From NCBI GenBank assembly GCA_002687735.1, contig NZBD01000015.1:54499-118498 (forward strand): a stretch of 64,000 nt of DNA. The letters are read 5' to 3'. The notes under the pieces were generated by a model. The model was not told the DNA's origin. It worked only from the letters and a program-made list of their open reading frames with translations, and searched no databases. Numbering within the stretch: position 1 is the first letter of the stretch; each line of letters starts with the position of its first letter. The translations under genes and the position numbers were made by a program. This DNA is from Candidatus Iainarchaeum sp. (GTDB lineage Archaea; Iainarchaeota; Iainarchaeia; Iainarchaeales; Iainarchaeaceae). Of this stretch, positions 1,355 to 56,279 are shown in pieces.

Positions 1355-1383
1355 AATTAATTCCCACTAATTTCTTTATCCTT

Positions 1384-1447
1384 CCACAGTTGCGGCTGTG
1401 GGCAACGCGTACCATCTTCACCTTGAGGCTCGATGCTACTAACTCAG
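1384..1447 (+). mobile_element. hairpin-headed mini-element copy A (64 bp), flanked by 23-bp direct duplication 1361-1383 / 1448-1470
   Basis: Starts with CCACAGTTGCGGCTGTGG. Flanks TTCCCACTAATTTCYTTATCCTT are duplicated and encode the C-terminus KDKEISGN of the minus-strand gene. The element supplies that gene's TGA stop. Confidence 0.6.
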
Positions 1448-2085
1448 TTCCCACTAATTTCCTTATCCTTTAGAAGCATTTTTCCCATTGTGGTTAGGTC
1501 AATTTTTACTTTACCGTCTTCCCTTTCAATTTCCACAAGGCCAAGTTCTTTCAAACCAGGGTTCTTTTCGTTTCCATAAATGTGATAATTCACAAGGCTT
1601 GGCCCTAATTTGGTTTTTCTGCTTAGCATTTCTAATGAATCAAGAGACCCTTCATTATTCAGAAGCATAAGTATTCTCATTTTTTTATCTGAAAGCATAT
1701 CGTAGTATGAAAATTTCAGCACAGGAAGCAGTTCGATCTGATCATTATCAACATCAAATGCTTTAATGCCGTTTACAAATGCGGCTGCTGTTGCCGCACA
1801 GCTCATTCCTTTTGAAGCAGCGCCTAAATTAATTGTAAGCATCTTGCCCTTTTCCCTTGCTTTAATGTGATTAATAATTTCAAACATTGATTCCATTGAA
1901 TATTTGTTCAGTTCTTCGATTTCCACGGGGATTTTGAATTTCCCAAGATCAGCTTTAACCTTATCAGCTTCGCTTAAGCCTTTAGCGCTTGGGATCAAAA
2001 TTATTTTTTCAGTAGGAAATTCCCGGATTCCCACGAATAATGTTTCAGTGTTCCCGCCCAGAGGAGCAATAATTATAGTTTTCAT
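1444..2085 (-). CDS. Rossmann-like (CARF-like) domain plus C-terminal winged-HTH regulator, Csa3-like architecture
   Basis: N-terminus MKTIIIAPLGG...INLGAASKG Rossmann/CARF-like; C-terminal helix-turn-helix; assignment from sequence pattern only. Confidence 0.35.
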   Translation of the reverse strand: MKTIIIAPLGGNTETLFVGIREFPTEKIILIPSAKGLSEADKVKADLGKFKIPVEIEELNKYSMESMFEIINHIKAREKGKMLTINLGAASKGMSCAATAAAFVNGIKAFDVDNDQIELLPVLKFSYYDMLSDKKMRILMLLNNEGSLDSLEMLSRKTKLGPSLVNYHIYGNEKNPGLKELGLVEIEREDGKVKIDLTTMGKMLLKDKEISGN

Positions 2086-2230
2086 CTAAATACTACTGTT
2101 TTTTAATATTAAAATAATTTGTTGAATCAATTCAAATATATTTGAATCAGTTAATGTAGGTTTTAATTAGGTTCAATCCATAATTAATCTTAATAAGAGG
2201 TAAACTCTGTATATTTGGAGGTTTTTGATT

Positions 2231-2464
2231 ATGAGTGAGGTAACAATTTACACAACGCCGACTTGTGTTTACTGTAACATGGCCAAGGAATTTTTCAAGG
2301 AAAATAAGGTTGAATATAAACAAATAGACGTTTCAACAGATTCGCAAAAGGCCCAGGCAATGTTTGAAAAATCAGGACAGATGGGAGTTCCTGTCATAGA
2401 CATAGACGGAAAAATAATTGTCGGTTTTGACAAGGAATCAATTAAAGAAGCCTTAGGCCTCTAA
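2231..2464 (+). CDS. glutaredoxin/NrdH-like redoxin
   Basis: TPTCVYC motif; GGAGG 10 nt upstream of ATG 2231 (the track start at 2225 is TTG). Confidence 0.8.
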   Translation: MSEVTIYTTPTCVYCNMAKEFFKENKVEYKQIDVSTDSQKAQAMFEKSGQMGVPVIDIDGKIIVGFDKESIKEALGL

Positions 2465-2483
2465 CTTTTTAGGATCTGATTTA

Positions 2484-3392: not shown

Positions 3393-3402
3393 GTGAATTA
3401 AC

Positions 3403-5837: not shown

Positions 5838-6815
5838 ATGGAAAAAATCCCTATTAAAGATGATTCAGAAAAACAGCTTTTTGATGCCTTAAAAGAAGCC
5901 TGTGATGGCATAGAGTTCAGTTCTTTTGAGGTAGGTGTTTCTAGTGAATCACTGGAAACTAAATATAAAATAAGACAAAAATCAATAGATTTTGTAAAAT
6001 CTACTTTTAAATCAAAACACGATTCTGAAAATTTTGAAAGCTATATTTTAGTTCATTTTGACAGGGGCTTTATTGAGGTCACTCCTACAAATGTTCTTGT
6101 TGAAGGTTTTTACAATAAATTTTCAAGAGATATTGCTCAGACATTTCATTATTGTTTTAAGTGCAGAGGCAGGGGCTGCAAAAAATGTAATAAAACAGGA
6201 AAACTTTCTGAAGAATCTGTTCAGGAACTAATAGAAAAAATAACTCTCCCCTTATTTGAATCTAAAGAGTCTAAGTTTCATGGCTGTGGAAGAGAAGACA
6301 AAGATGTTTTAATGTTAGGAAAAGGAAGGCTTTTTGTAATTGAATTAGTGGAACCAAAAAAGCGTTCAATTGATCTGAAGAACCTTGAAGAAGAGATCAA
6401 TTCAAAAAACAAGAATAAAATTTCTGTCAGAGGATTAAAGTTTGTTGAAAAGCAAAGAGTTGTCGAAATAAAAAATACTCCTTTCGAAAAAATTTATTCT
6501 GCAAAGTGTTTGTGTTCAGAAATTTCACAAAAAGAACTTGAAACCTTAATTAATAAAAAAATTAAAATTTTCCAGCGTACTCCTGTAAGGGTTGAAAAAA
6601 GAAGAGCGGATAAGAAAAGAGAAAAAACAGCAAAAATACTTAAAGCAAAATTAATTAACGAGAAAGAGTTTTCGTTAGAAATACTTTCATCACACGGCCT
6701 TTATATTAAAGAGTTTATTTCCGGGGACGAAAAAAGAACTGAACCGAGCATTTCTTCCATGCTCGGAAAAGAATGTGTTTGTAAAGAACTTGATGTACTG
6801 GAAATTGTGATTTAA
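5838..6815 (+). CDS. pus10: tRNA pseudouridine(54/55) synthase Pus10
   Basis: Zn-ribbon CFKCRGRGCKKC and catalytic HGCGREDKDVLMLGKGRLF motif. Confidence 0.8.
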   Translation: MEKIPIKDDSEKQLFDALKEACDGIEFSSFEVGVSSESLETKYKIRQKSIDFVKSTFKSKHDSENFESYILVHFDRGFIEVTPTNVLVEGFYNKFSRDIAQTFHYCFKCRGRGCKKCNKTGKLSEESVQELIEKITLPLFESKESKFHGCGREDKDVLMLGKGRLFVIELVEPKKRSIDLKNLEEEINSKNKNKISVRGLKFVEKQRVVEIKNTPFEKIYSAKCLCSEISQKELETLINKKIKIFQRTPVRVEKRRADKKREKTAKILKAKLINEKEFSLEILSSHGLYIKEFISGDEKRTEPSISSMLGKECVCKELDVLEIVI

Positions 6816-7759
6816 AGATCCACAATCCCCTGCTCCGTTACTCGGTAAATGGCTTCTCCGTCAGGCAAAGAAGGGCTGTCAACAAGCTTTGCAACTCTTT
6901 TATCTTCCTTACTTTTTCTTAAGTAAAGCCTTGTTTTGGAAGCGTGTGCAACAACGTTTCCTCCAACAGGTGCGGTTGGATCCCCGAACATAATATCCGG
7001 TCTTTCCATAACCTGATTGGTTACAAGTACGGCTATATTACTCATTTCTGCAAGTTTCTGCAAAGTTCTCATGTGCTTGTTTAGTTTTTGTTGTCTTTCG
7101 GCAAGAGTTCCACGTCCAACAAACTCCGATCTGAACTGAGCCATCAGAGAATCAACGATTAATAATTTCACATTTTTATTTTTCACCATATCTTCTGCGT
7201 TTTCCGCCAACAGCATTTGGTGATCTGAAGTATATGCTCTTGCCACAAAAATATTTTTGAGTGCTTCCTCCGGATCAAGACCTTGAGATTCTGCAATTGC
7301 AACAATCCTTTCAGGCCTGAAACTGTTTTCCGAATCAATGTAAAGGCATGATCCGTCCAGACCTCCTTTTTCTTTTGGAAGCTGTACAGTTACTGCTGTT
7401 TGAAAACACCATTGTGTTTTTCCTGAAGCAAACTTTCCGTAAATTTCTGTAATGCTTTGTGTTTCTATTCCTCCGCCTATAAGATTATCTACTTCTGCAC
7501 TTCCCATAGTTAATTTTCCCACGAGTTTTCTTTTTTCAGCTAAAGCAGATGCAGTTTCATAACCCATTTCCAAAGCTTCTCTTGCAGCTTTGATTGCTTT
7601 ATCAGATGTACCATCCCCCAATCCAGCTATTTCCTTCAATTCCTTTGGGGAAGCAACTGCAATATTTTCCAAAGTTTTGTAGCCTGCAGCAATTAGTTTT
7701 TCACTTGCCTGTGGTCCTACGCCAGGCAAATCTTCGATTTTCTTGATCTCTTTAGTCAT
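6812..7759 (-). CDS. radA: DNA repair and recombination protein RadA
   Basis: HhH N-terminus (LPGVGPQASEKL), Walker A GKFASGKTQ; GGAGG before ATG at 7759. Confidence 0.9.
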   Translation of the reverse strand: MTKEIKKIEDLPGVGPQASEKLIAAGYKTLENIAVASPKELKEIAGLGDGTSDKAIKAAREALEMGYETASALAEKRKLVGKLTMGSAEVDNLIGGGIETQSITEIYGKFASGKTQWCFQTAVTVQLPKEKGGLDGSCLYIDSENSFRPERIVAIAESQGLDPEEALKNIFVARAYTSDHQMLLAENAEDMVKNKNVKLLIVDSLMAQFRSEFVGRGTLAERQQKLNKHMRTLQKLAEMSNIAVLVTNQVMERPDIMFGDPTAPVGGNVVAHASKTRLYLRKSKEDKRVAKLVDSPSLPDGEAIYRVTEQGIVDL

Positions 7760-7796
7760 TTTTGTTTCCTCCTTAAAACCTGTACCTTTACGAGGA

Positions 7797-7821
7797 ACCT
7801 CCGTTGACCTGGAGTTCCACA
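7797..7821 (-). other. GC-rich stem-loop in radA 5' leader
   Basis: Minus strand GGAACTCCAGGTCAACGGAGGTTCC forms an imperfect ~8-bp stem between the TATA element and the SD. Confidence 0.3.
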
Positions 7822-7856
7822 TGAGCACGGTCTTTTCACTAAGTTAGTGTTTTTTG

Positions 7857-9701: not shown

Positions 9702-10574
9702 TCAGTTCATTAATCTTCTCAGACTTTCTTTAGTCGAAACTTTAAATTCAAATCCAAGAGACTTAATTTTTTTGTTTGAATAATACCTGTCTCTTATCAT
9801 CCTTTTCAAATAAGCAGAGTCTAATAAAGGCACGATTTTCAAGTAACTATTAACAAAAGCAATAATTTTTCCCAAAAAAAGAGGAACCGTTTTCAAAGGT
9901 CTGTTCATTCCGCTTTCAGTTCTAATAAATTCAGCGAGTTCTTTCAGGGTCATTGCTTCATCATCGCAAAGCATAAAAGTTTCCTCAAAACAATTCTCAT
10001 TGTTAACAGAAAATAATATGGCATTCACAACATTTTCCAAAGAAACAAGCTGCCAATGATTAGAACCATCTCCAATAAGCGGAAAATCTTTCCTTATTAG
10101 TTTTACTATTTTATTCCAATAATCAGTTTTTCCTATTATTATTGCGGGCCTGAAAATAGTTACAGGAAAAATTTCCTGATAAGAAAGAACTTTCTGTTCT
10201 GCTTCCCATTTGCTTCTTTCATATCTTGTTTCAGGATTTGGTTTTGTTTCCTCATTTTTTAATCCGGAGGTTTTCCCAAAAACAGCCACACTGCTTAAAA
10301 AAATAAACTGCTTTACTCCGTTTTCTGATGCGGCTTCCAAAACATTTTCTGTACCTTTAACATTAACATCAAACAAATCAGCCGCGTGTTCATCAAGCGT
10401 TGCTGCACAATGCACAACAATATTTGCACCTTTTATAGATTTTTTGACCTGATCCGCTTTAGTAATGTCACAGTTCTGGCGGTTGCATTCAATAACATCA
10501 AAACGCTTTGCTCTCAGTGCTTTAACAAGCGCATTTCCAACTAAACCATTGCCCCCAGTTACTGCAATTTTCAT
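9702..10574 (-). CDS. NAD-dependent epimerase/dehydratase family protein
   Basis: MKIAVTGGNGLVG Rossmann motif. Confidence 0.7.
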   Translation of the reverse strand: MKIAVTGGNGLVGNALVKALRAKRFDVIECNRQNCDITKADQVKKSIKGANIVVHCAATLDEHAADLFDVNVKGTENVLEAASENGVKQFIFLSSVAVFGKTSGLKNEETKPNPETRYERSKWEAEQKVLSYQEIFPVTIFRPAIIIGKTDYWNKIVKLIRKDFPLIGDGSNHWQLVSLENVVNAILFSVNNENCFEETFMLCDDEAMTLKELAEFIRTESGMNRPLKTVPLFLGKIIAFVNSYLKIVPLLDSAYLKRMIRDRYYSNKKIKSLGFEFKVSTKESLRRLMN

Positions 10575-11614
10575 CTTAAATTCCTCATAACAAGTAATAA
10601 GTCTTTTCCGAGTTTTTTCTTTTTCAAAACTCTTACTTTTATAGGTTTCTTAACTTTAAATGCCTTTAAACCCTGTTTAATTTCCCTGTCAGCAATAATA
10701 AAAACCAATCTATCAAACATTTTTTTCCCTAATAATTCTGAAGCAAGTTTGTTTCCTGGTTCAATCAAAACATTTTTTATTCCAAAAGAATAAAGCTTTT
10801 CAAAAGCATCATCCAAACTAATTCCTTTTTTTGAAGCTTTTACAGTAACAACCTTTGCTCCCTTTTCAAGTAAATTTTTTATTTTATTTTTTGGAATTTT
10901 TTTTGTGCAGAAAATAATTGTATTTCCTTTTTCAGAAAGCACTTTAGAATCCAGAGGAATTCTTGCTTTAGAATCAAGTACAACTCTCACAGGATTTTTT
11001 CCTTTCTTTACGCTTAATTTCGGATCATCTTTCAAAACAGTATTGCTTCCAACAATTATTGCATCATTTTGTTCTCGTAGTTTTTGAACAAATCTGGAAG
11101 ATTGTTTTCCGGAAATTTTCTTTTTCTTTCCGTCTCCGAATGAAATAAATCCGTCAATGCTCATGGCGATTTTTATTGTTATTAATGGTTTTTTCTTTAC
11201 AGAATAATTAGTTATGTATAAGTCGTATAGTTTTTTAGCTTCTTTTTCTCTTGTAATTTTTACTGTAATTCCATGTTTCCTTAATTCTTTAGCTCCGTTT
11301 CCTGATTCTTTGTTAGGGTCTCCTTGAGCAATAAAAACACGCTTAATTCCAGCTTTGATAATAGCTTTTGTGCAGGGAGGTTGCTTTCCATAATGATTAC
11401 AAGGCTCAAGTGTTACAAAAAGATCAGCTCCTTTGGCTTTTTTACCTGCTTTTTTCAAAGCTCCAGCCTCAGCATGTTCATCCCCAAATCTCTTGTGATA
11501 GGCTTTTCCAACTATTTTTTCTTCCTTAACAACAACAGCCCCGACCATTGGGTTTGGCCATGTGTCTTTTCCTTTTTCAGCGGCCTTAATTGCTTCTTGC
11601 ATAAAATTTTTCAT
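10571..11614 (-). CDS. ribD: bifunctional riboflavin biosynthesis deaminase/reductase RibD
   Basis: CMP/dCMP deaminase zinc motif (HAE...PCNHYG) plus C-terminal RibD reductase domain. Confidence 0.75.
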   Translation of the reverse strand: MKNFMQEAIKAAEKGKDTWPNPMVGAVVVKEEKIVGKAYHKRFGDEHAEAGALKKAGKKAKGADLFVTLEPCNHYGKQPPCTKAIIKAGIKRVFIAQGDPNKESGNGAKELRKHGITVKITREKEAKKLYDLYITNYSVKKKPLITIKIAMSIDGFISFGDGKKKKISGKQSSRFVQKLREQNDAIIVGSNTVLKDDPKLSVKKGKNPVRVVLDSKARIPLDSKVLSEKGNTIIFCTKKIPKNKIKNLLEKGAKVVTVKASKKGISLDDAFEKLYSFGIKNVLIEPGNKLASELLGKKMFDRLVFIIADREIKQGLKAFKVKKPIKVRVLKKKKLGKDLLLVMRNLR

Positions 11615-12441
11615 TAAAATCCCCCGGTTAATAAAAAGCCCAGTCCGGGAAAAACAAGCGCTAACAAAACCCCTAGAAAAACAAATACTCCAAACCTTGG
11701 AAGATCCCTATAAACAAAAATTTCTTTAATTCCTTTTTTTTCAAGTTCCTTTTTTTCCTTTTCTCCATAAATTCCTTTGAAACCTTTTCCGAGTTTTTCT
11801 CTTTCTTTTTCACTCATAAAATCAAACGCAATTATTTCATCTTCCTCTATATCTTTAAGATTGATTTTTTTCAGAAAAAATTCTTTCCTGATTCCTTTTT
11901 CAAATGCAATAAAAAGAACACCAAAACTAAGAGGGGTTCCAAACAAAAGCAAATAATTATCAGAAACAAAACCTGTTGTTGAAAGCATAAACAAATAAAC
12001 AATCAGGATAACCAAAAAACCAAGCGCTCTCATAATTCCTTGCTTGTTATACTGAAAGTCAATCCCTTTCCGAAAATATTTAATCATATAATAGACTGAC
12101 AGGAAAATTATTGAAGTTAAAGCAGACAAAAGTACAGCTTGAATAATGAAAACACTATCATTGAAAAATGGCAAAGCCAAAGCAATTCCTGTGTAAAGTT
12201 TTACATCCCCGCCGCCAATTTTACCTGTATAATAAAGGACATAACCAATTCCAAAAACTAATATTCCCAAACCAATTCCGGAAAATTCTTGCTCAAGAAT
12301 GTTCACGAATAAGCCAAAAATAATTAGCGGGATTGTTATCCAATCATAAATGTAGCCGGTTTTAAAATCCACATAAGCCCCGACTCCGGAAGCGAGCAAT
12401 ATTGCTATTTGTCTGAGTAAAATAAGTTCCATGTTTATCAA
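11614..12441 (-). CDS. A24-family prepilin/preflagellin peptidase
   Basis: Polytopic membrane protein with catalytic-Asp motifs (AYVDFKTGYI, GGGDVKL). Confidence 0.65.
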   Translation of the reverse strand: MINMELILLRQIAILLASGVGAYVDFKTGYIYDWITIPLIIFGLFVNILEQEFSGIGLGILVFGIGYVLYYTGKIGGGDVKLYTGIALALPFFNDSVFIIQAVLLSALTSIIFLSVYYMIKYFRKGIDFQYNKQGIMRALGFLVILIVYLFMLSTTGFVSDNYLLLFGTPLSFGVLFIAFEKGIRKEFFLKKINLKDIEEDEIIAFDFMSEKEREKLGKGFKGIYGEKEKKELEKKGIKEIFVYRDLPRFGVFVFLGVLLALVFPGLGFLLTGGF

Positions 12442-14651: not shown

Positions 14652-14939
14652 TTATTTTAGCACTTCTAGGGTTCCTTGTTTGCCTGTGCCAAGTTGTATT
14701 TGGCCTCGGAATTCTGAACAGTAACCGTTAGAAATCTTGATTTTATCTCCCTCATTGACCTGATCTGTCTGCTCATTCCATAGACTAAGGCTTACTTCCC
14801 CGGTTTCATCCTTTCCTGCACAGTTACATACTGTTCCGGATCCTTTCTCATTAGCCCATTTCCTGATTTCGCCTTTTGAGGTTATTTCAAGTTCTATTTC
14901 GTCAACTGGTGTTCTTGCTTTTAGTTCTGAAACTTTCAT
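14652..14939 (-). CDS. OB-fold nucleic-acid-binding protein (small SSB/RPA-like)
   Basis: 95-aa OB-fold pattern with CxC pair. Confidence 0.45.
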   Translation of the reverse strand: MKVSELKARTPVDEIELEITSKGEIRKWANEKGSGTVCNCAGKDETGEVSLSLWNEQTDQVNEGDKIKISNGYCSEFRGQIQLGTGKQGTLEVLK

Positions 14940-14984: not shown

Positions 14985-15091
14985 ACCGCCACAGTTTCGG
15001 CTGTGGGCAACGACGGTTACATGGCAAGACACAGTCTTGCTATGCCCCACAAACTCAAGTTTGTGAGGGTCTCGTTAAAACGAGATAAGCC
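14985..15091 (+). mobile_element. hairpin-headed mini-element copy B (~105 bp)
   Basis: CCGCCACAGTTTCGGCTGTGGGCAACG head followed by three further GC-rich hairpins, abutting the ftsY stop; possible short TSD AAATCA. Confidence 0.5.
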
Positions 15092-15094: not shown

Positions 15095-16354
15095 TCACAA
15101 AATCCTGTCAATAATAAATTCAGACTTGAATTCCAAAAGGTCTTCATACCTTTGACCAGTTCCCACAAACACAATCGGCTTCTTCAGTTTGTATAATAGA
15201 GAAATCGCTGTCCCTCCTTTTGTATCAGTATCGATTTTTGTTAATACAAATCCATCAATTCCAATGGCTTTATCAAATTCCGATGCTTGTTGTAAAAGTG
15301 CCTGGCCAGTATAAGCTTCTCCAACGTATAATTTCACATCCGGTTTGATAACTCTTTCAATTTTTTTAAGTTCATCAATCAGGTTCTTGTTAGTATCTTG
15401 TCTTCCTGCCGAATCAATTAATACAACATCAATGTTTTTTGCTTCTGCTGCTTTAACAGCATCAAACGCAACAGCTGTTGGATCACTCCCATATTTGTGC
15501 TTTACAACTTTTACTCCGAGTTTTTTCCCGTGCTCTTCCAGTTGATCTATTGCTGCTGCTCTGAAAGTATCTCCGGCTGCCAGAATAACACTTTTTTTAT
15601 TATTCATAAAGTATTTGGAAATTTTTGCTATAGAAGTTGTTTTGCCTGCTCCGTTTGGTCCTAAAAATAAAATCTTTAATGGTTTTTCTTTCAGTGAAAG
15701 CAAATTTATTTTTTCTGTTTCCATTATTTTTTCAAGCGAGCCTTTAACTTCTTTTTTAAGAAATTCTCCGACATCTTCTTTTGCAGAAATTTCCTTCCCA
15801 ATAAGTCTTTCTTTTAATTCTTTCACAATAGCTTCTGCTGTATCCTGTTCAACATCAGATTCTAATAAACTTAATTCGAATTCTTCAAAAAATTCTCCTG
15901 CTTCCTTTTCGGTTATTTTGATTTTCCCGCCAATAAAACCAAACAGTTTTTTTCCCAAACCAACTTTTGCTTTTAATTCTCGTTTCTCATCTTTCCGGAT
16001 TTCTTTTACTTTTTCTTCAGCAGCTTTATCTTCTCCGCCAATAGAAAATTTCTCTTCTTCTATTTCAGGTTCAGAAATTTCTTTTTCAATAACAGATTCT
16101 TCGGCTTTCGGTTCAGTTGGTTCTTCAGTTATTTCTTCTTCAGAAACAGTTTCTTCTTTAGTTTCAACAACTTCCTTAACTTCTTGTTCAATTATTGGTT
16201 TTTCTTTAACTGGTTTGGAAACTTGTTCTTTTTGTTCCTGAACAGGTTTAGGCTTTTCAATTTGTTCAGTTTCTTTTTTTGATTCCTGCTTTTGGAGTTT
16301 TTCCTTTAACTTATCCGTAAAATTAGAGACCTTTTTCTTTAGGAAATCAAACAT
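15095..16354 (-). CDS. ftsY: signal recognition particle receptor FtsY
   Basis: Acidic N-terminal region plus NG GTPase motifs (GPNGAGKTT, DSAGR, TKID). Confidence 0.9.
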   Translation of the reverse strand: MFDFLKKKVSNFTDKLKEKLQKQESKKETEQIEKPKPVQEQKEQVSKPVKEKPIIEQEVKEVVETKEETVSEEEITEEPTEPKAEESVIEKEISEPEIEEEKFSIGGEDKAAEEKVKEIRKDEKRELKAKVGLGKKLFGFIGGKIKITEKEAGEFFEEFELSLLESDVEQDTAEAIVKELKERLIGKEISAKEDVGEFLKKEVKGSLEKIMETEKINLLSLKEKPLKILFLGPNGAGKTTSIAKISKYFMNNKKSVILAAGDTFRAAAIDQLEEHGKKLGVKVVKHKYGSDPTAVAFDAVKAAEAKNIDVVLIDSAGRQDTNKNLIDELKKIERVIKPDVKLYVGEAYTGQALLQQASEFDKAIGIDGFVLTKIDTDTKGGTAISLLYKLKKPIVFVGTGQRYEDLLEFKSEFIIDRIL

Positions 16355-20771: not shown

Positions 20772-20876
20772 ATGATTGGTAAAAAATTAAAACAAAAAAG
20801 AAATTTTTCAGATGGGGAATTAAGAATTAATATTGAGGGAGAACCTTTTCCCGCCAGGGTCCGTAAGAGGAGGTAA
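20772..20876 (+). CDS. possible 34-aa basic micro-protein (MIGKKLKQKRNFSDGELRINIEGEPFPARVRKRR)
   Basis: ORF lying inside a GC-rich patch of the 470-bp intergenic region; not verified. Confidence 0.15.
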   Translation: MIGKKLKQKRNFSDGELRINIEGEPFPARVRKRR

Positions 20877-21017
20877 CCGAAAAACAGAATTACTCAGTTA
20901 GTTTAAAAGAAAATAAATACTTTTGGGGGTGTTTATGATGAAAAACCGGGGCTTCGGCCCCAACCATAAACCAAATCTAAAATCTAATTTTTTACGCCTT
21001 AACAAAAATAATTAGTA

Positions 21018-21089
21018 TGCAGCCACGGGGATTCGAACCCCGGCCAAGAGCTTGGAAGGCTCTGATCCTAACCGCTAGACGATGGCTGC
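21018..21089 (-). tRNA. tRNA-Gly (anticodon UCC)
   Basis: 72-nt cloverleaf, acceptor GCAGCCA/TGGCTGC, T-arm GGTTCGAATCC, anticodon loop CUUCCAA. Confidence 0.85.
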
Positions 21090-21971
21090 TTTGACATATT
21101 CTTTATGCGTTGGCACTTTTCTAGTTTCTTTAAAAATCTGGTATTTTATTGTGTGCTTAATATTGCTGGGTTTAATTAGTTTAAAAAAGGTATCCAATTG
21201 TTTCTGATCGTAAATATAAACACTTTTTCCGGACAAACTGGCCTTAAATCCAAGTGAAATCAATGCTTCTTTAATTTGATTAAGAAAATTTGGCGAACAG
21301 CTGATATATTCAACCACTCCGCTATTTTCCCTTTTTCTGTGGAAACTTCCGTCTGTATCAAAAAGTCCTCTAAGATAAGCACAGAGAAGTTTTTCGTTCT
21401 TTAAGATTACTTTTGGAATAAATGTTTTATTTTTTCTATTCCCAATTACAAATTTACATTTTTCTGAAAGAAATAAGACAAGTTCTTTGGAGTAAATCAA
21501 ACACCGAATTGCTCCATTTTTTGTTACAAATGTTGGCTCTAAACCAAATAACTTTTCAAATTTTTTACCAATAACGTTTACAACATAATCATAATCTACT
21601 ATAGCACTACACGTAATTGAGACACGGTTATTTTTACCATAAATGTTACCGTCGCCTGCCATTGCCCCTAGAAATTCTGCTAATCCTTCGTTCAATTCAG
21701 GTTGAGATATTTCTTTTTTCTGAAAATAATTTGATTTTACTATATTTAAAGTATACAATTTTTTCAAATCAAAGTCTGTTTCTATACCAAGAAAAATTAA
21801 TTTGTGAAACCGAATTTTACTGGTTTCTCTTAAATAGTGAAAAATCATCCTTCTTTTTACTTTCAAAATCTTCGCAATTTCGTTCCAATTTAAACCTGAC
21901 TTATTTTTTATTTCTCTTAAAATACTAGCTTGTTTTCCAGAGCCAATATCTACAAATAGAGTTTTTTCCAC
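21075..21971 (-). CDS. free-standing double-motif LAGLIDADG homing endonuclease with N-terminal HTH
   Basis: LAEFLGAMAGDGNI and LRGLFDTDGSF motifs; the last 15 nt of the ORF are the first 15 nt of tRNA-Gly(UCC). Confidence 0.75.
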   Translation of the reverse strand: MEKTLFVDIGSGKQASILREIKNKSGLNWNEIAKILKVKRRMIFHYLRETSKIRFHKLIFLGIETDFDLKKLYTLNIVKSNYFQKKEISQPELNEGLAEFLGAMAGDGNIYGKNNRVSITCSAIVDYDYVVNVIGKKFEKLFGLEPTFVTKNGAIRCLIYSKELVLFLSEKCKFVIGNRKNKTFIPKVILKNEKLLCAYLRGLFDTDGSFHRKRENSGVVEYISCSPNFLNQIKEALISLGFKASLSGKSVYIYDQKQLDTFFKLIKPSNIKHTIKYQIFKETRKVPTHKEYVKAAIV

Positions 21972-21992: not shown

Positions 21993-22033
21993 GCTTTTAA
22001 ACACCCTGAAGCCCCTTGTTGCCGGTGCGAACC
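21993..22033 (-). promoter_or_regulatory. promoter of LAGLIDADG gene: box GGTTCGCACCGGCAAC plus TATA (TTTAAAAGCA)
   Basis: Shared GC-rich upstream box 16 nt 5' of the TATA element. Confidence 0.5.
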
Positions 22034-26667: not shown

Positions 26668-26720
26668 AAGTTTATAAATAGCTTAGCATACGAAAAAATT
26701 AAGAGTGGGCCAGGGAGGAC

Positions 26721-26840
26721 CCAAACGCCGTCTGCTCACGGCGGTAGAGCGTCCACCTTCGGTAGGACTAAACTTATGTCCTGCTGCGACCGACGGGAGT
26801 GCAGGACGGCCGTTTGCGGTACTCACGGTCGCAAACGTGA
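26721..26840 (-). repeat. 120-bp GC-rich structured insert between two 15-bp copies of the tRNA-Val 3' end
   Basis: Exact direct repeat TGGGCCAGGGAGGAC at 26706-26720 and 26841-26855. The insert carries a 7-bp stem GTTTGCG/CGCAAAC and a tRNA D-arm-like GCTCACGGCGGTAGAGC. Confidence 0.5.
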
Positions 26841-26913
26841 TGGGCCAGGGAGGACTCGAACCTCCGATCCTCTCCGTGTAAAGGAGATGTCATAGCCACT
26901 AGACCACAAGCCC
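26841..26913 (-). tRNA. tRNA-Val (anticodon UAC)
   Basis: 73-nt cloverleaf, D-arm GTCTAGTGGCTATGAC, anticodon stem TCTCC/GGAGA with loop UUUACAC, T-arm GGAGGTTCGAGTCCTCC. Confidence 0.8.
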
Positions 26914-35408: not shown

Positions 35409-35447
35409 TTTCGCACCGGCAACCAACCCTAAATTGATTTAAAAACC
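35409..35447 (+). promoter_or_regulatory. nurA operon promoter: box TTTCGCACCGGCAACCAACCC plus TATA (GATTTAAAAACC)
   Basis: The 20-nt string CACCGGCAACCAACCCTAAA is identical to the radA upstream region. Confidence 0.55.
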
Positions 35448-39597: not shown

Positions 39598-39610
39598 TTC
39601 GCACCGGCAA

Positions 39611-39727
39611 TGCACGCCTCAGAAAAACCAAGGTTTTTCCGAGACCTTTTCCTTTTTTGAATCTTTAATTTATAACCCATTGTGAGCAATGGGTTGGACG
39701 TTAGCGTACCACACAGCCGCAACTGTG
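39611..39727 (-). mobile_element. hairpin-headed mini-element copy D (117 bp), flanked by 12-bp duplication TCGCACCGGCAA (39599-39610 / 39728-39739)
   Basis: Minus strand begins CACAGTTGCGGCTGTG directly after the duplication and carries further hairpins (AACCCATTG/CAATGGGTT; AAAAACC/GGTTTTT). It is inserted into a copy of the promoter box. Confidence 0.55.
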
Positions 39728-39768
39728 TCGCACCGGCAACACACCCCTTGAAAATGCTTTTTAAAGCA
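39728..39768 (+). promoter_or_regulatory. promoter of 498-aa gene: box GTCGCACCGGCAAC plus TATA (GCTTTTTAAAGCAG)
   Basis: Box-TATA-ATG arrangement as at radA and nurA. Confidence 0.5.
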
Positions 39769-44294: not shown

Positions 44295-44330
44295 TTCGCA
44301 TCGGCAATGATGTCTCGAAAGTATTTAAAG
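44295..44330 (+). promoter_or_regulatory. promoter of DUF5678-like/protease pair: box TTCGCATCGGCAAT (variant) plus TATA (TATTTAAAG)
   Basis: Same box-spacer-TATA geometry; two mismatches to the core. Confidence 0.4.
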
Positions 44331-53259: not shown

Positions 53260-53306
53260 TTTGAACGTTTAAAGTATGTGTTTTGTCAGATTTAAAGGTT
53301 GCCTTG

Positions 53307-54347
53307 TCATTTCCAGTCTGATTTATACCTGAGAACAGCAGCAATTCCGCCAAATCCAAGTATTTTTTCCCCTGCTTCGTTTTTGCCTGAAATAAAAATA
53401 ATCTTCCCATGTAATTGTTCAGCTTTATCAAGTATTTGTTCTGTTTCTTCTCTTTTTTCTGAAAGCATTTTTTCATGAACCACCAGCTCATCAACAGCAC
53501 CAGAATCAATTGCTTTTTTTACTTCCTCAAAACCAATTGCACTTAAACCATTTGAAACCCCGACGAGAATTTTTTCAACAGCTTTAGTTTCTTCAGCTGC
53601 ATGGAACCCTTCAATAAGCTGGTCTATTTTTCCGCTTTTTATAAGTTCATTTAAACCTGTTATTCCAACTGAATTTGTTGATTCAAAGTTTGGTTTTAGT
53701 TTTGAGTTTTTTTCTTTTAAGAATTTTTCAAAATTTTGTTTCTCAAAACCAGGGCCGGCTATAACGATTTTTTTAGGCTCCAGTTCAGTGAGTTTTTTCA
53801 AAAGTTCATCAAAGTAAGGGTTTCCTTTTTCGGCGTTCTCAAATCTTTTGCCGCCTTTTTTTCCAAGGATTTTTGCTTTCTTAGCAAGTCCAGAATCTTT
53901 CAGGAAAGCAAGTTCTGCTTCCTCATCATCCATAACAACTAATAGCAAATTTTCTCTGCCGGATGCTTTTTTTGCTCTCTCAAGCCTGTCAATATGGTAC
54001 TTTTTCAGTGCTTTTTTTGTAATCCTTATTTTTTCTCCTGCCTCAGCTTCAATAGTGTGATGGCTTTTCAATTCCACTAATTCTGTTGGTTTTGCAGAAA
54101 CAACAATTCCCTGAATTCTTAATTGATTTGTTGTTTCATGGAACTCTGCTTTTTCAACTTCCAGTTCCACAAAAATTTTCTGCTTGAAAGCTTTTTCTCC
54201 TTCATTTTTTGGCTTGATTTTTCTTTCAGACTCACCGCTAACCAAATCTCCCCGCTCTATGAGTTTTTCAATATGCCATAAGTCATCAAATGAATCAGGA
54301 ATGACTTCGAAATAATTGTTTTTCTGATCAACTTTGAGTATTTTCAT
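53307..54347 (-). CDS. pelA: Pelota/Dom34 ribosome-rescue factor
   Basis: Pelota N-terminal and eRF1-like domains. Confidence 0.8.
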   Translation of the reverse strand: MKILKVDQKNNYFEVIPDSFDDLWHIEKLIERGDLVSGESERKIKPKNEGEKAFKQKIFVELEVEKAEFHETTNQLRIQGIVVSAKPTELVELKSHHTIEAEAGEKIRITKKALKKYHIDRLERAKKASGRENLLLVVMDDEEAELAFLKDSGLAKKAKILGKKGGKRFENAEKGNPYFDELLKKLTELEPKKIVIAGPGFEKQNFEKFLKEKNSKLKPNFESTNSVGITGLNELIKSGKIDQLIEGFHAAEETKAVEKILVGVSNGLSAIGFEEVKKAIDSGAVDELVVHEKMLSEKREETEQILDKAEQLHGKIIFISGKNEAGEKILGFGGIAAVLRYKSDWK

Positions 54348-54418
54348 AATAATTCATGTGGCTGTAAACAGTTAAAAAACCTTAGAACAGAATTCTAAGA
54401 TGGCAAGAATAGCAGTAT

Positions 54419-54500
54419 CAGAACCACAGTTGCGGCTGTGGACGCCCTTCGGGCGGCGTCCATCTCGCTTGGGCTCGATAGGACTTGGAAGGGATTAGTA
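54419..54500 (+). mobile_element. hairpin-headed mini-element copy C (82 bp), flanked by exact 19-bp duplication ATGGCAAGAATAGCAGTAT (54400-54418 / 54501-54519)
   Basis: CCACAGTTGCGGCTGTGG, then GACGCCC-TTCG-GGGCGGCGTC stem, then CCATCTCGCTTGGGCTCGAT as in copy A. The duplication contains the ABCE1 start codon. Confidence 0.6.
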
Positions 54501-56279
54501 ATGGCAAGAATAGCAGTATTGGAAAAGGATCGTTGTATCAACAAAGAGGGCTGTAATTTCATTTGTGGCAATGTTTGTCCTGTAAATAGAGCCGGTAAGG
54601 AATGCATTTCCCTAGATGAGGAAACAAACAAGCCGGTTATAAGTGAAGACCTCTGCATAGGCTGCAATATTTGCGTAATCAAATGCCCGGTTGATTGTAT
54701 TTACATTGAGAATCTTGTGCAGGAACTAAATGAGGAGCCGGTTCAAAGATTTGGTGAAAATGAGTTTAGAGTTTACAGATTGCCTCTTATAAGAGAAGGA
54801 GAAATTGTAGGTTTGATTGGAAGAAACGGTATTGGAAAAAGCACTATTCTAAATATCCTTTCAGGTCAGTTAGTGCCGAATTTAGGGGATTATGAAAACG
54901 AACCAAATTATGATAAAGTAATGAATTTTTTCAAGGGAAGAGAATTACAGGATTACTTTTCTTCATTAAAAGAAAAATCAATAAAAGTTTCTTTCAAACC
55001 ACAGAACATCAACGATATCCAAAAGGCTTACAAAGGAAATGTAAATGATTTGCTGAAAAAGGTTGATGAAAGAAAAAAACTGAAAGAAATTTCCAAAATA
55101 TTAAGAATTGAAAAAATTCTTGAAAGGGATTTAAAAAGTTTAAGCGGAGGAGAACTTCAAAGAGTTGCTATTGCAGCTGCTGCTTTGAAGGATGCTGATT
55201 TTTATGCGTTTGATGAACCAACATCTTATTTAGATGTTAAAGAACGTTTGAACATGGCTGCATTATTAAGATCTTTAGCAGTTGAAAAGAAAACAGTTAT
55301 TGTTATTGAGCATGACTTAGCAGTTTTGGATTATTTGAGTGATTATGTTCATTTGCTTTATGGAAAAAAATCAGTTTATGGAATTGTTTCAAATTCTAAA
55401 AGTGTAAAAAATGGCATTAATGAATTTTTGGAAGGTTTTGTAAAAGATGAAAATGTGAGATTCAGAAAAGAAGAATTAAAATTTGAGGTTAAGCCTTCAA
55501 CTGATTTTAAACTGAAAAATATTGTTGCAAAGTATCCTTCTATGAAAAAATCTTTTGAGAATTTTTCTTTGGAGGTTGAAGGCGGTGAATTAAGGGAAGC
55601 AGAGGTATTAGGAATTATGGGTCCTAATGGTATTGGTAAAACCACTTTTGTAAAGATGTTGGCAGGAGTTGAAAAGCCTGATGAAGGTTCTATTGATCTT
55701 TCTCTTAAAGTTTCTTACAAACCTCAGTATCTTTCTCCTGAACAAGGAGTTACTGTTGCTGATTTTATTACTTCTCAAAACATAGACCGTGCTGTTTTCA
55801 AACAAGAGGTAGATAGACGTCTTTTCATTAGTGAGTTAGAAAACCATAAATTAGAGGAACTTTCAGGAGGGGAGCTCCAGAAAATTGCAGTAGGAATGGC
55901 CTTATGCAGAAACGATGTTGAATTAGTGCTTTTAGATGAACCAACAGCTTTTGTCGATATTGAGGATCGTCTCAATATGGCTGACACTATCAGGTCTGTT
56001 ACTGATTCAAAAAAGAAAGTTTGTCTGGTTGTTGACCATGATCTTGTGTTTCAGGATTCTGTTAGTGACCGCTTAATGATTTTTGAAGGAGAATCTTCAG
56101 TGAAAGGTTTAGCCAGGAAGCCTTTCACAATGCATGATGGGATGAATCACTTTTTGAAATCCATGCAACTTTCATTTCGACGCGATAAAACAAACGGTCG
56201 CCCTCGTGCAAATAAACCAGGTTCACAATTAGATAAGGAACAAAAAGCCAAGGGCGAATATTACTATTCAGTAGAATAA
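54501..56279 (+). CDS. abce1: ABCE1 (RNase L inhibitor / Rli1 ribosome-recycling ATPase)
   Basis: N-terminal 4Fe-4S Cys clusters and twin ABC cassettes; start at ATG 54501 (MARIAVLEKDRC), not the upstream GTG. Confidence 0.9.
   Translation: MARIAVLEKDRCINKEGCNFICGNVCPVNRAGKECISLDEETNKPVISEDLCIGCNICVIKCPVDCIYIENLVQELNEEPVQRFGENEFRVYRLPLIREGEIVGLIGRNGIGKSTILNILSGQLVPNLGDYENEPNYDKVMNFFKGRELQDYFSSLKEKSIKVSFKPQNINDIQKAYKGNVNDLLKKVDERKKLKEISKILRIEKILERDLKSLSGGELQRVAIAAAALKDADFYAFDEPTSYLDVKERLNMAALLRSLAVEKKTVIVIEHDLAVLDYLSDYVHLLYGKKSVYGIVSNSKSVKNGINEFLEGFVKDENVRFRKEELKFEVKPSTDFKLKNIVAKYPSMKKSFENFSLEVEGGELREAEVLGIMGPNGIGKTTFVKMLAGVEKPDEGSIDLSLKVSYKPQYLSPEQGVTVADFITSQNIDRAVFKQEVDRRLFISELENHKLEELSGGELQKIAVGMALCRNDVELVLLDEPTAFVDIEDRLNMADTIRSVTDSKKKVCLVVDHDLVFQDSVSDRLMIFEGESSVKGLARKPFTMHDGMNHFLKSMQLSFRRDKTNGRPRANKPGSQLDKEQKAKGEYYYSVE

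What the first reader, a model, noticed from the sequence alone, without database searches (positions are those of the whole stretch)
1361..54519. Family of hairpin-headed mini-insertions flanked by long target duplications at gene boundaries
Four small GC-rich elements begin with the same hairpin CCACAG-TTGCGG-CTGTGG (copy B has TTTCGG). Copies A and C also share a 3' block (CCATCTyC...CTTGrGGCTCGAT), so they are homologous rather than chance hairpins. Copies: A 1384-1447, B 14985-15091, C 54419-54500, D 39611-39727 (minus strand). Three are bracketed by direct repeats of host sequence, of 23, 19 and 12 bp. Copy A duplicates the last 8 codons of the 1444-2085 gene, and the element supplies its new TGA stop. 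Copy C duplicates the first 19 nt of ABCE1 including the ATG, leaving an out-of-frame orphan copy upstream. Copy D sits inside the GC-rich promoter box. Copy B abuts the ftsY stop, with only a possible 6-bp AAATCA duplication. Each host gene stays intact. Oriented elements with one conserved terminal hairpin, a variable body, no coding capacity and unusually long, variable-length duplications do not match standard IS/MITE signatures (which give short fixed TSDs) or IS200/605 (which gives none). Variable-length long TSDs are the hallmark of target-primed, SINE-like insertion or of staggered-nick repair. They could also be expressed structured sRNAs. No transposase is in the window.
Basis: seen in the sequence. 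Interest (0 to 1): 0.85.

Follow-up and report, generated by a model that had tools for sequence, protein, structure and literature searches.

The report
Hairpin-headed mobile mini-insertions in DPANN archaea
The window, from a marine Diapherotrites (DPANN) archaeon, carries six copies of an undescribed family of tiny, structured, non-coding mobile elements that insert at gene and tRNA boundaries and duplicate 11-47 bp of the target, which rebuilds the interrupted gene end; how they move is unknown.

Summary
The 18-nt head CCACAGTT[G/T]CGGCTGTGG occurs four times, against none expected. Two more copies with variant heads sit beside tRNA-Val. The family recurs in Iainarchaeia/Diapherotrites genomes and metagenomes and matches no Rfam family.

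Sister genomes have empty sites for copies A, B and C, with one copy of the repeated sequence at A and C. Across 33 copies, 16 have a direct repeat that abuts the head exactly; random positions give 4 of 1615.

Compensatory changes support three structures: the head stem, a pairing between the head loop and a downstream CG[C/A] triplet, and the body helices. The 5' end is exact and the 3' tail is ragged. There are no terminal inverted repeats.

Sites are re-used by different subfamilies. Copies sit 0-1 nt from mature tRNA ends in 10 cases.

Standard MITE, IS200/605, casposon and integrase signatures were tested and not met. I favour copy-and-paste through a single-stranded, probably RNA, intermediate copied from a nick, which would be SINE-like. 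No reverse transcriptase or transposase was found, and a DNA-level route is nearly as likely. In a sister genome, a 728-bp gene cassette flanked by a perfect 49-bp duplication points to a DNA-level route.

The parts
1384..1447 (+). Copy A (type 1 body): head 1384-1401, helix GTACCATC..GATGCTAC, tail CTAACTCAG that supplies the TGA stop (1444-1446, read on the minus strand) of gene 1444-2085
   Evidence: The tail motif ACTC is shared with L061, so it comes from the element.
1361..1383 (.). Left repeat of A. This is the original end of gene 1444-2085 (the orphan), still followed by the original TAA (1358-1360, minus strand).
   Evidence: The empty site in L201 has one copy..GGGAATTAATTTTGAG.., matching this copy and its flank.
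1448..1470 (.). Right repeat of A. This is the duplicated copy, now the functional last 8 codons of gene 1444-2085.
14989..15091 (+). Copy B (type 2 body with three inserted hairpins). It fills the spacer between the ftsY stop (15095-15097) and the promoter of the SSB-like gene 14652-14939. No convincing duplication.
   Evidence: fold -47.3 kcal/mol, z -6.7. The empty 58-nt spacer is seen in L210.
54424..54500 (+). Copy C (type 1b: head, extra cUUCGg hairpin, helix GTCCATC..GATAGGAC, 16-nt tail)
   Evidence: An orthologous filled site is in L010. Empty sites are in L203, L207 and L208.
54400..54423 (+). Left repeat of C. This is the orphan copy of ABCE1 codons 1-8, behind the original promoter. 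It opens a 32-codon uORF (54400-54498) that stops 2 nt before the real ATG.
54501..54524 (+). Right repeat of C, the functional start of ABCE1 (54501-56279)
39611..39728 (-). Copy D (type 3: head ACACAG..CTGTGT, GGTACGCTAACGTCC, hairpin AACCCATTGC..GCAATGGGTT, ATAAAT, A/T-rich stretch, second long hairpin)
   Evidence: (z -4.8)
39729..39739 (-). Head-side repeat of D (TTGCCGGTGCG). It is part of a recurrent host motif that lies behind a TATA-like box.
39600..39610 (-). Tail-side repeat of D (TTGCCGGTGCG, followed by AA as in unoccupied motif copies)
26727..26773 (+). It has a variant 5' hairpin GCCGTCTGCTCACGGC and a type 1 body GCGTCCACCTTCGGTAGGAC. The 3' limit is approximate and overlaps F's tail.
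   Evidence: The same variant is in L123, and the body is identical to L087.
26768..26840 (-). It is type 3 with the variant head TCACGTTTGCGACCGTGA, which starts directly after the discriminator base of tRNA-Val.
26706..26720 (.). Orphan copy of the tRNA-Val 3' end (tRNA positions 59-73). It extends to 26726 with changes only at T-loop positions 56 and 58.
26841..26855 (-). The matching 3' end of the functional tRNA-Val gene (26841-26913)
22019..22031 (+). Unoccupied copy of the host motif TTGCCGGTGCGAA, a natural 'empty' version of D's target. Further copies are at 35410-35422(-) and 44295-44307(-, 1 mismatch).

Best explanation
**What it is.** These are copies of a family of small, non-coding, GC-rich, structured mobile elements, about 55-135 nt long. 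As far as the scans reach, the family is confined to Iainarchaeia/Diapherotrites (DPANN archaea).

**Anatomy.**
- A copy begins with a 6-7 bp hairpin.
- Loop nucleotides 9-11 of that hairpin pair with a CG[C/A] triplet four bases after the stem.
- Next comes one of several interchangeable hairpin bodies.
- The copy ends in a ragged, A/T-rich tail.

**Proposed mechanism.** The elements cannot move by themselves.
1. A new copy is made by copy-and-paste from a single-stranded copy of the sense strand. I favour an RNA.
2. A 3'-OH at a nick in the target primes synthesis on this template, starting in the ragged tail.
3. Synthesis runs off at the 5' hairpin end, which gives the exact head junction.
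4. The other target strand is broken 11-47 nt away.
5. Gap filling duplicates the stretch between the two breaks.

**Why the copies sit where they do.** The genome is very compact. Only insertions whose duplication rebuilds the interrupted stop codon, start codon, promoter or tRNA 3' end survive. Ends of tRNAs, and probably transcription starts, are favoured break or junction points.

**Shown versus inferred.**
- Shown: the family, its structure, its polarity, the target duplications, the empty sites, site re-use and the link to tRNA ends.
- Inferred: the single-stranded (RNA) intermediate, target-primed copying, and an enzyme acting in trans that reads the head.
For: **Family and chance.** The head occurs 4 times against 0 expected. 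Related copies occur in at least 8 archaeal genomes and contigs with GC 28-52%.

**Insertion.**
- L201 is empty at A's site and holds one repeat copy.
- L203, L207 and L208 are empty at C's site and hold one repeat copy.
- L210 is empty at B's spacer, where no repeat is involved.

**Duplications.** 16 of 33 copies have a repeat that abuts the head, against 4 of 1615 controls. Clear repeats with few or no mismatches measure 11, 14, 16, 18, 19, 20, 23, 24, 39, 40 and 47 bp.

**Polarity.** The repeat always abuts head base 1. Behind the conserved body there are 0-18 variable A/T-rich bases. This is the layout of a short retroposed RNA.

**Structure.**
- Head stem: compensated changes at pairs 1:18, 2:17 and 5:14.
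- Loop to downstream pair 9:25: UA in 13 sequences, GC in 10, other in 1.
- Type 3 alignment: 9 of 17 pairs carry double changes, and 97.8% of cells are paired.
- Type 1 helix: 3 of 7 pairs carry double changes.

**Sense-strand, RNA-like features.** UNCG-type loops occur in the head (UGCG or UUCG). Canonical cUUCGg loops occur in the 1b hairpin and in L087. The sense strand folds better in 21 of 28 copies (p=0.01).

**Junctions at RNA ends.**
- The head starts 0-1 nt after the tRNA 3' end in six cases: L009, L059, L164, L169, L189 and window F.
- The tail abuts a tRNA 3' end in three cases: L092 and two in L132.
- The head abuts the tRNA-Glu 5' end in L061.
- Two ABCE1 duplications, 24 bp and 40 bp, both begin at the ATG of an apparently leaderless gene.

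**tRNA orphans.** Five orphans all span positions about 54-73 and differ from the parent only at positions 56-58.

**Continuing activity.**
- Heads are genome-specific and compensated: CAACAG..CTGTTG occurs twice in L204, and CAACCG..CGGTTG in L209.
- The same site is occupied by different subfamilies: L034 versus L085, window B versus L209, and D versus L019 and L094.
- L014 has a tandem double insertion with three copies of one repeat.

**Reverse transcriptases.** They exist in DPANN genomes, mostly of the diversity-generating (DGR) type (PMC8632793).
Against: - No reverse transcriptase, transposase or integrase was found in the window or on the syntenic contigs. A genome-wide search was not possible.
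- An archaeal element that starts at its own first base cannot carry its promoter.
- Insertions occur in both orientations relative to the target transcript. A pure sense-RNA, template-switch reading therefore does not explain all the junctions at RNA ends.
- All covariation is Watson-Crick to Watson-Crick, with no G.U intermediates. That is unusual for an RNA family and fits single-stranded DNA equally well.
- In sister genome L209, a 728-bp cassette with its own TATA box and a 230-aa ORF is flanked by a perfect 49-bp duplication of the ftsY end, right beside a family member. This lineage therefore has a DNA-level route to long duplications.
- Tails are not consistently A-rich.
- Transcription starts are inferred from TATA spacing, not measured.
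Confidence: 0.4

Rival explanations
1. DNA-level insertion. A trans-acting nuclease or transposase, or a host break-repair route, recognises the head as a DNA hairpin. It inserts a DNA copy at two nicks 11-49 bp apart, and fill-in gives the duplication. This is the same process that inserted the 728-bp gene cassette in the sister genome.
For: - The L209 cassette (11256-11983) has its own promoter and a perfect 49-bp duplication of the ftsY end, next to a family member.
- Covariation is strictly Watson-Crick.
- Insertions occur in both orientations.
- No reverse transcriptase was seen.
- Published DNA-level precedents for long, variable duplications exist: IS1630 (19-26 bp) and insertions of restriction-modification genes (PMC2853133).
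Against: - There are no terminal inverted repeats and no second conserved end.
- The ragged 3' tail is unlike the two defined ends of transposase-cut elements.
- The repeats are not palindromic, unlike IS1630 targets.
- The cassette has no head and no homolog in any held sequence, so the two events may be unrelated.
- Junctions exactly at mature tRNA ends have no obvious DNA-level cause.
Confidence: 0.3
2. The copies are above all functional structured RNAs or cis-acting modules kept by the host. Examples would be small RNAs co-transcribed with tRNAs and released by 3' processing, or 5' leader modules that couple a uORF to the downstream gene. Mobility would only be how they spread.
For: - The first 36 nt of copy C are identical in the window and in L010, although ABCE1 is only 85% identical at the nucleotide level.
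- The helices of those two copies differ by a compensated change, GTCC..GGAC versus GTAC..GTAC.
- In all three filled ABCE1 lineages, the orphan ATG opens a uORF that ends 0-6 nt from the real ATG.
- Six copies follow tRNAs in the same orientation.
Against: - There is no consistent orientation or position relative to host genes.
- Sister species do without the elements at the same sites.
- Sites are occupied by different subfamilies.
- The conservation can also come from re-insertion or from gene conversion out of active copies.
- One copy in L132 is visibly decaying.
Confidence: 0.15
3. Replication or repair template switching without a dedicated enzyme. A stalled nascent strand copies an element elsewhere. 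It leaves the template once the hairpin has been copied, and re-anneals upstream of where it left. The result is an insertion plus a duplication.
For: - Duplication lengths are variable.
- The entry point (the tail) is ragged, and the exit is exact at a stable hairpin.
- Targets include tRNA genes, promoters and a protein-bound-looking motif, where replication forks may stall.
Against: - The head is conserved in sequence, not only in structure, over genomes with 28-52% GC.
- Both breakpoints recur exactly in independent events: L014, L034 versus L085, and five tRNAs.
- No microhomology is evident at the junctions.
Confidence: 0.08
4. The copies are scars or mini-derivatives of integrative elements that entered by tyrosine-recombinase site-specific recombination. 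The repeats would be att sites.
For: The five tRNA-derived repeats run from the T-loop to the 3' end. This is the classic position of integrase crossover sites in tRNA genes (from established knowledge).
Against: - Each copy has a different repeat taken from its own target: protein gene starts, gene ends, promoters and many different tRNAs.
- An element of 55-135 nt cannot carry a matching att site for each target.
- No integrase lies near any copy.
Confidence: 0.04

Closest known systems
SINEs (non-autonomous non-LTR retroposons of eukaryotes)
   Same: - Short, non-coding, structured and oriented.
- Exact 5' end and variable 3' tail.
- Flanked by target duplications of variable length.
- Copy-and-paste, with lineage-specific subfamilies.
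(SINE properties are from established knowledge.)
   Different: - No internal promoter is possible in archaea.
- No A-tail.
- No partner element or reverse transcriptase has been identified.
- Duplications reach 47 bp.
- Nothing of this kind is known in prokaryotes.
[quoted passage not shown]
   Same: - Long, variable duplications.
- The duplications often overlap the 3' end of a gene or a tRNA.
- No transposase in the insert.
- The mechanism is unknown.
- The 728-bp cassette in L209 looks like exactly this.
   Different: - There the cargo is kilobase-sized gene units, each inserted once.
- Here it is a repeated family of 55-135 nt with a conserved structured end.
IS1630 (IS30 family, Mycoplasma; 19-26 bp duplications, cited in PMC2853133) and IS1634 (duplications from 17 bp to about 500 bp, from memory)
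   Same: Long target duplications of variable length, made at the DNA level.
   Different: - Those elements have inverted terminal repeats and encode a DDE transposase.
- IS1630 duplicates inverted repeats. The repeats here are not palindromic, and the elements have no inverted ends.
REP/BIME elements with RAYT, and IS200/IS605-derived palindrome-associated elements
   Same: Small, GC-rich hairpin repeats that lie outside genes and are presumably read as hairpins by an enzyme acting in trans.
   Different: - Those make no target duplication.
- They have hairpins near both ends or in pairs.
- They insert next to a fixed 4-5 nt target. None of these features is seen here.
Rickettsia palindromic elements, and GC clusters or double-hairpin elements of fungal mitochondria (from memory)
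   Same: Tiny, GC-rich, hairpin-forming mobile insertions in compact, AT-rich genomes. They are tolerated inside or at the edges of genes and RNA genes.
   Different: - Those have no long target duplications that rebuild gene ends.
- There is no sequence relationship, and the hosts are different.

Membership tests
MITE (deletion derivative of a DDE-transposase IS) | Terminal inverted repeats at both ends | tested here: not met
   Only the 5' end is conserved. The tails are variable and are not complementary to the head.
MITE (deletion derivative of a DDE-transposase IS) | Short target duplication of fixed length | tested here: not met
   The repeats range from 11 to 47 bp within one family.
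IS200/IS605-type or REP/RAYT hairpin elements | No target duplication; insertion 3' of a conserved 4-5 nt target; hairpins near both ends | tested here: not met
   Duplications are present in 16 of 33 copies. The bases before the head show no consensus. There is a single terminal hairpin.
SINE-like retroposon (target-primed reverse transcription) | Variable-length target duplications, defined 5' end, variable 3' end | tested here: met
SINE-like retroposon (target-primed reverse transcription) | A reverse transcriptase/endonuclease partner in the same genome | not testable with these tools
   None is present in the 64-kb window or in about 100 kb of syntenic contigs. Whole genomes could not be scanned.
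SINE-like retroposon (target-primed reverse transcription) | The element is transcribed, with an RNA 5' end at the first base | not testable with these tools
   No expression data were available. The only indirect hints are UNCG loops on the sense strand and a better sense-strand fold.
Integrase-mediated integrative element (att duplication) | One specific att sequence shared by element and target; an integrase gene | tested here: not met
   Every copy has a different repeat, taken from its own target. No integrase is seen on any contig.
IS1630-like insertion | The duplicated target is an inverted repeat | tested here: not met
   The repeats are no more self-complementary than their shuffles.
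Casposon-derived mini-elements | 14-15 bp fixed duplication and terminal inverted repeats (from established knowledge) | tested here: not met
   Lengths are variable and there are no inverted ends.
[quoted passage not shown] | Long, variable duplication; no mobility gene in the insert; an empty allele in a relative aligns with one repeat copy | tested here: met
   That class was defined with a threshold above 30 bp and on gene-sized cargo, so the fit is to the phenomenon and not to a mechanism.
Any described RNA family (Rfam 15) | A match to a covariance model | tested here: not met
   At the gathering threshold only 4 tRNAs match. E-value scans of all four copies give nothing better than E=1.3, and all hits are far below each family's gathering score.

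The most novel reading that the evidence does not exclude
The family is the first SINE-like retroposon of archaea, and of prokaryotes in general. In this reading a small structured RNA with a 5' hairpin-pseudoknot is reverse-transcribed into nicked targets. The enzyme switches template onto the ends of host RNAs, so that part of each 'target duplication' is a cDNA copy of a mature tRNA 3' end or of an mRNA 5' end. The recurrent changes at tRNA positions 56-58 in five independent orphan copies would then be the mark left by reading through modified bases (Cm56, m1A58).
Probability: 0.3. Interest if true: 0.92.

Novelty: new variant of a known kind. Interest (0 to 1): 0.72.

Why it matters
- DPANN archaea have genomes of about 1 Mb with almost no spare DNA and few recognised mobile elements.
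- This family has at least 35 copies in the small sample examined, and six in 64 kb here.
- It spreads by rebuilding the gene end that it interrupts. That is a simple answer to how a parasite survives in a genome with almost no non-coding space.
- It reshapes gene starts (uORFs, a new GTG start), stop codons and the sequence downstream of tRNA genes.
- Its anatomy fits no prokaryotic transposon class.
- If the intermediate is RNA, retroposition of the SINE type would no longer be a purely eukaryotic invention.
- If the intermediate is DNA, the family gives a repeated and therefore tractable handle on 'insertion with long target duplication', whose mechanism is still unknown.
- The strongly covarying head also defines a new structured motif that can be searched for in other genomes.

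Tried and rejected
1. **Known RNA family.** Rfam scans at the gathering and E-value thresholds gave nothing.

2. **Virus-borne origin.** The viral-contig scan gave 4 hits, none with the family's downstream motif.

3. **Metagenome hits.** Most were an unrelated bacterial terminator-like hairpin with the same 18-mer followed by a T-run. I discarded them.

4. **'Both repeat copies are under protein-level selection'.**
   - I first read A (3 differences) and L010 (5 differences) as synonymous-only.
   - For A, the empty site shows that the stop and the Asn codon come from the element tail. That leaves one real difference.
   - For L010, the outgroup L203 shows that 4 of the 5 changes are ordinary synonymous drift of the functional copy.
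   - The 5-of-5 synonymous differences in L204 remain unexplained.

5. **In-frame translated insertion in L005.** Rejected, because the gene is on the other strand.

6. **A long autonomous version.** Repeat searches out to 6 kb behind heads that lack repeats found only the tRNA-Thr case in L132.

7. **The 230-aa ORF of the L209 cassette as the mobilising enzyme.**
   - No Pfam or NCBIfam hit.
   - Its protein cluster holds only that one sequence.
   - No homolog in any held sequence.

8. **Choosing the strand from fold energies.** Only the head favours the sense strand. The bodies do not.

9. **Covariance model of the head.** It finds only the four canonical copies in the window and misses the variant-head copies.

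10. **Literature.** Three full-text searches found no description of such elements in archaea.

Full report

Yes. CCACAGTTGCGGCTGTGG, allowing 2 mismatches, occurs at 1384(+), 14989(+), 54424(+) and 39728-39711(-). No match appears in 100 shuffles.

The repeats are as follows.
- A: 23 bp with 1 mismatch.
- C: 19 bp perfect, or 24 bp with 2 mismatches.
- D: 11-12 bp.
- B: none convincing.

Among close direct repeats in the whole window, those of A and C are the only near-perfect ones outside gene-internal paralogy.

The window has 34.5% GC, and the elements are among its few GC-rich islands. The flanking genes are as stated: an HFX_2341-like gene, ftsY, an SSB-like OB-fold gene, a Na/Ca exchanger, pelota and ABCE1.

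**2. Where does the window come from, and how wide is the family?**

The window's proteins are identical to those of a marine 'Candidatus Diapherotrites archaeon' MAG, on a contig of 237,787 bp.

An exact-pattern scan of one genome per species gave 76 loci. About 35 chance hits are expected by my estimate. Those followed by the family's downstream motif are all archaeal:
- Candidatus Iainarchaeum JBDRLP01, 9 copies;
- the complete genome CP064981.1, 2 copies;
- MAG JANLGZ01, 2 copies;
- three further archaeal MAGs.

The metagenome scan added about a dozen copies. Most other hits there were an unrelated bacterial terminator-like hairpin. The viral hits were unrelated.

In all I examined 33 copies with canonical or near-canonical heads, plus several copies with more divergent heads.

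**3. Anatomy**

All copies share a 5' domain. It is a 6-bp stem (7 bp with a U.G pair) and a TT[G/T]CGG loop. Four variable bases follow the stem, then CG[C/A].

- Loop base 9 and base 25 covary: U:A in 13 distinct sequences, G:C in 10, other in 1.
- The same linker variants (GCAA, GGTA, GGTG) occur with both states, so this is not one inherited change.
- Stem pairs 1:18, 2:17 and 5:14 show compensated changes.

Behind this domain come interchangeable bodies.
- Type 1: helix GTACCATC..GATGCTAC around a variable apex. 3 of 7 pairs carry double changes.
- Type 1b: type 1 with an extra cUUCGg hairpin.
- Type 2: GCNACGA, then a hairpin, then GGCC or GGCTCAC..TTCGC.
- Type 3: GGTRCGCTAACGKCC, then a covarying hairpin, then ATAAAT, then an A/T-rich stretch and a long hairpin. 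In the alignment of the 5' domain plus that first hairpin, 9 of 17 pairs carry double changes and 97.8% of cells are paired.

The element ends in 0-18 variable, A/T-rich bases. There is no terminal inverted repeat and no ORF.

B and D fold far better than shuffles (z -6.7 and -4.8).

No covarying pair passes through G.U. A few conserved G.U pairs and the UNCG loops favour the sense strand. Sense folds better in 21 of 28 copies, but this is driven by the head only.

No Rfam family matches.

**4. Are they insertions, and are the repeats target duplications?**

Three window copies have empty sites in relatives.

*Copy A.* L201 carries an ortholog 75% identical at the protein level. It reads ..AAAGATAAAAATGGGAATTAA|TTTTGAG.. 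with one copy only. That copy matches the window's left repeat and its flank. So the left copy is the original gene end, and the right copy is the duplicate now in use. The TGA comes from the element tail, whose ACTC motif recurs in L061.

*Copy C.*
- L203 (89% identical) reads ..CTTAGA|ATGACTCGAGTAGCAGTATTGGAA|AAAGACC with one copy, in a 53-nt spacer between pelota and ABCE1.
- L207 and L208 are also empty.
- L010 (91%) is filled like the window.

*Copy B.* L210 (81%) has a 58-nt spacer and no element.

Family-wide, 16 of 33 copies have a repeat scoring at least 11 whose left copy ends exactly at head base 1. Random positions in the same loci give 4 of 1615. Lengths with few or no mismatches are 11, 14, 16, 18, 19, 20, 23, 24, 39, 40 and 47 bp.

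The repeats contain whatever the insertion would have destroyed:
- last codons and the stop (A);
- the ATG and first codons (C, L010, L204);
- a Shine-Dalgarno sequence plus ATG (L005, L014, L087);
- a TATA box plus ATG (L045);
- a tRNA 3' end (L059, L092, L164, L169, window tRNA-Val).

In L204 the last G of the head creates a GTG start for the downstream gene.

**5. Target choice is not random**

*(a) tRNA ends.*
- The head begins 0-1 nt after the 3' end of tRNA-Trp, -Ser, -Cys, -Leu and -His, and of tRNA-Val in the window.
- The tail abuts the 3' end of tRNA-Leu and of two tRNA-Thr genes.
- The head abuts position 1 of tRNA-Glu.

*(b) Re-use of sites.*
- L034 (type 1) and L085 (type 2) sit at the same base of orthologous sites.
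- The ftsY/SSB spacer holds type 2 in the window and a type 3 copy with head CAACCG..CGGTTG in JBDRLP. It is empty in JANLGZ.
- L014 has two different elements in tandem with three copies of one 19-20 bp repeat.

*(c) A host motif.* A motif with a TATA-like box, then GGGG, then TTGCCGGTGCGAA has the element inserted exactly after ..GTGCG in the window (D), in L019 (upstream of an orc1/cdc6-like gene) and in L094. Three other motif copies in the window are unoccupied.

*(d) ABCE1.* A lineage 77% identical (L204-L206) has a longer relative of copy C with a 40-bp repeat. The window and L010 have 24 bp. Both repeats start at the A of the ATG, which sits about 20 nt behind a TATA-like box, so the gene is probably leaderless (the start site is inferred).

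**6. tRNA-derived orphans**

In five independent cases the orphan spans tRNA positions about 54-73. It is perfect from 59 to 73. All differences lie at 56-58:
- TTCGA becomes TTTGG in window tRNA-Val and in L169;
- it becomes TTCTGG in L092 and L059;
- it becomes TTCTGA in L164.

The changed edge is always the one next to the element, whether that is the head or the tail. With 8 changes confined to 3 of 20 positions, the chance probability is about 3e-7 by my calculation.

There are two readings.
- The orphan is copied from mature, modified tRNA. Cm56 and m1A58 are common in archaeal tRNAs, and m1A58 is the classic block to reverse transcription (both from established knowledge).
- Alternatively, junction-proximal repair errors are responsible. 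C, L045, L087 and L153 also have mismatches 2-6 nt from the head junction.

I could not decide between them.

**7. Mechanism**

The layout is that of a short retroposed RNA: an exact 5' end, a ragged 3' end, variable duplications, subfamilies, genome-specific compensated heads, and junctions at the ends of mature RNAs. DPANN genomes do encode reverse transcriptases, mostly of the DGR type (PMC8632793).

Several points count against this.
- No such enzyme, and no transposase or integrase, is in the window or on the syntenic contigs.
- Insertions occur in both orientations.
- Covariation is purely Watson-Crick.
- JBDRLP has a 728-bp cassette (L209 11256-11983) carrying a 230-aa ORF without homologs and its own TATA box. 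It is flanked by a perfect 49-bp duplication made of the last 33 nt of ftsY, the stop codon and 13 further nt. It lies directly beside a family member.

That cassette is a DNA-level 'insertion with long target duplication', as described for restriction-modification genes (PMC2853133).

My estimates are as follows.
- That these are mobile insertions with target duplications: about 0.9.
- That the intermediate is a single strand copied from a nick: about 0.4 to 0.5.
- That this strand is RNA: about 0.3 to 0.35.
- That the route is DNA-level, by an unknown enzyme or by host repair: about 0.3.

**8. What was excluded**

MITE, IS200/IS605 or REP, casposon, integrase/att and IS1630-type signatures were each tested and not met (see the membership table). 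The idea that both repeat copies are kept by protein-level selection dissolved for A and L010 once outgroups were available. It remains open for L204.

**9. Verdict**

It does not fit any prokaryotic mobile-element class. The mechanism is unresolved, and the data sharpen it to a small number of testable alternatives.

Noticed in passing
window 22019-22031(+), 35410-35422(-), 44295-44307(-), 39600-39610 and 39729-39739(-); L019 5806 and 6455; L094 3432; L209 (- strand): A recurrent host motif: TATA-like box, 8-11 nt, [A/G]GGG[T/C], 2-3 nt, TTGCCGGTGCGAA. It lies about 36-40 nt upstream of several ATGs (thymidylate kinase, an EF-1beta-like ORF, a 93-aa ORF). It occurs twice upstream of an orc1/cdc6-like gene in L019. 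It could be a promoter plus leader motif or an origin-recognition-box-like site. It is a preferred insertion point of the elements.
   Followed up: partly
L209 11207-12032 (JBDRLP010000027.1): A 728-bp insertion carries one 230-aa ORF (MFH1391285.1). The ORF has no Pfam or NCBIfam hit, and its protein cluster holds only that one sequence. The insertion has its own TATA box. It is flanked by a perfect 49-bp direct repeat of the ftsY 3' end, and the ORF's stop codon is formed at the junction. It lies directly next to a variant-head family member.
   Followed up: partly
window 26706-26726; L169, L092, L059, L164 orphan tRNA fragments: Five independent orphan copies of tRNA 3' ends all span positions about 54-73. 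They differ from the parent tRNA only at T-loop positions 56-58 (TTCGA to TTTGG, TTCTGG or TTCTGA).
   Followed up: partly
window 54400-54503; L010 3965-4076; L204 9792-10004: In all three lineages with an element at the ABCE1 start, the orphan ATG opens a uORF that runs through the element. It stops 0-6 nt from the real ATG (TAGTAATG, TGAGTGTATG, and an ATGA overlap). This suggests translational coupling. The ABCE1 frame is also open through the whole element in the window and in L010.
   Followed up: partly
L204 9792-9831 versus 10001-10040: The two copies of the 40-bp ABCE1 repeat differ at 5 positions, all synonymous. At least 3 of the changes are specific to the orphan copy. This is not explained. 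Possible causes are exchange with another lineage or past use of the orphan as the real start.
   Followed up: partly
window 21075-21971(-): A free-standing 298-aa protein with two LAGLIDADG motifs (Pfam LAGLIDADG_3, E=3e-12) and an N-terminal HTH-like region. It overlaps the 5' end of tRNA-Gly (21018-21089) and lies 50 nt from a TTGCCGGTGCGAA motif.
   Followed up: partly
L209 20158-21245 versus window 6812-7828(-): The radA gene of the sister genome JBDRLP carries an intein (Intein_splicing plus LAGLIDADG_3; product 827 aa). The window's radA is 338 aa and has no intein.
   Followed up: no
L132 781-972 and 2870-3046: Two paralogous tRNA-Thr genes (UGU and CGU anticodons) each have an element at their 3' end. 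The second element has a decayed head (GCACAGTTTCGACTATGC), so copies can degenerate.
   Followed up: partly
L204 19461-19565: The last G of the head plus the repeat creates a GTG start for the downstream gene. The antisense frame is open from the orphan ATG through the element. That would give a possible 31-aa N-terminal extension containing a repeated MELDxL.
   Followed up: no
metagenome loci such as L084, L086, L088, L105, L107 and L112 (gut samples among them): The same 18-mer, CCACAGTTTCGGCTGTGG, followed by GATTTTTTT, is a conserved terminator-like hairpin in many bacterial contigs. These are unrelated to the archaeal family and are a trap for pattern searches.
   Followed up: partly
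window 20835-20875 and 20930-20965: Two GC-rich patches lie in the 470-nt spacer before tRNA-Gly. The second is a hairpin, CCGGGGCTTCGGCCCC, preceded by ATGATGA. They may be unannotated small RNAs. Neither reached an Rfam gathering score.
   Followed up: no
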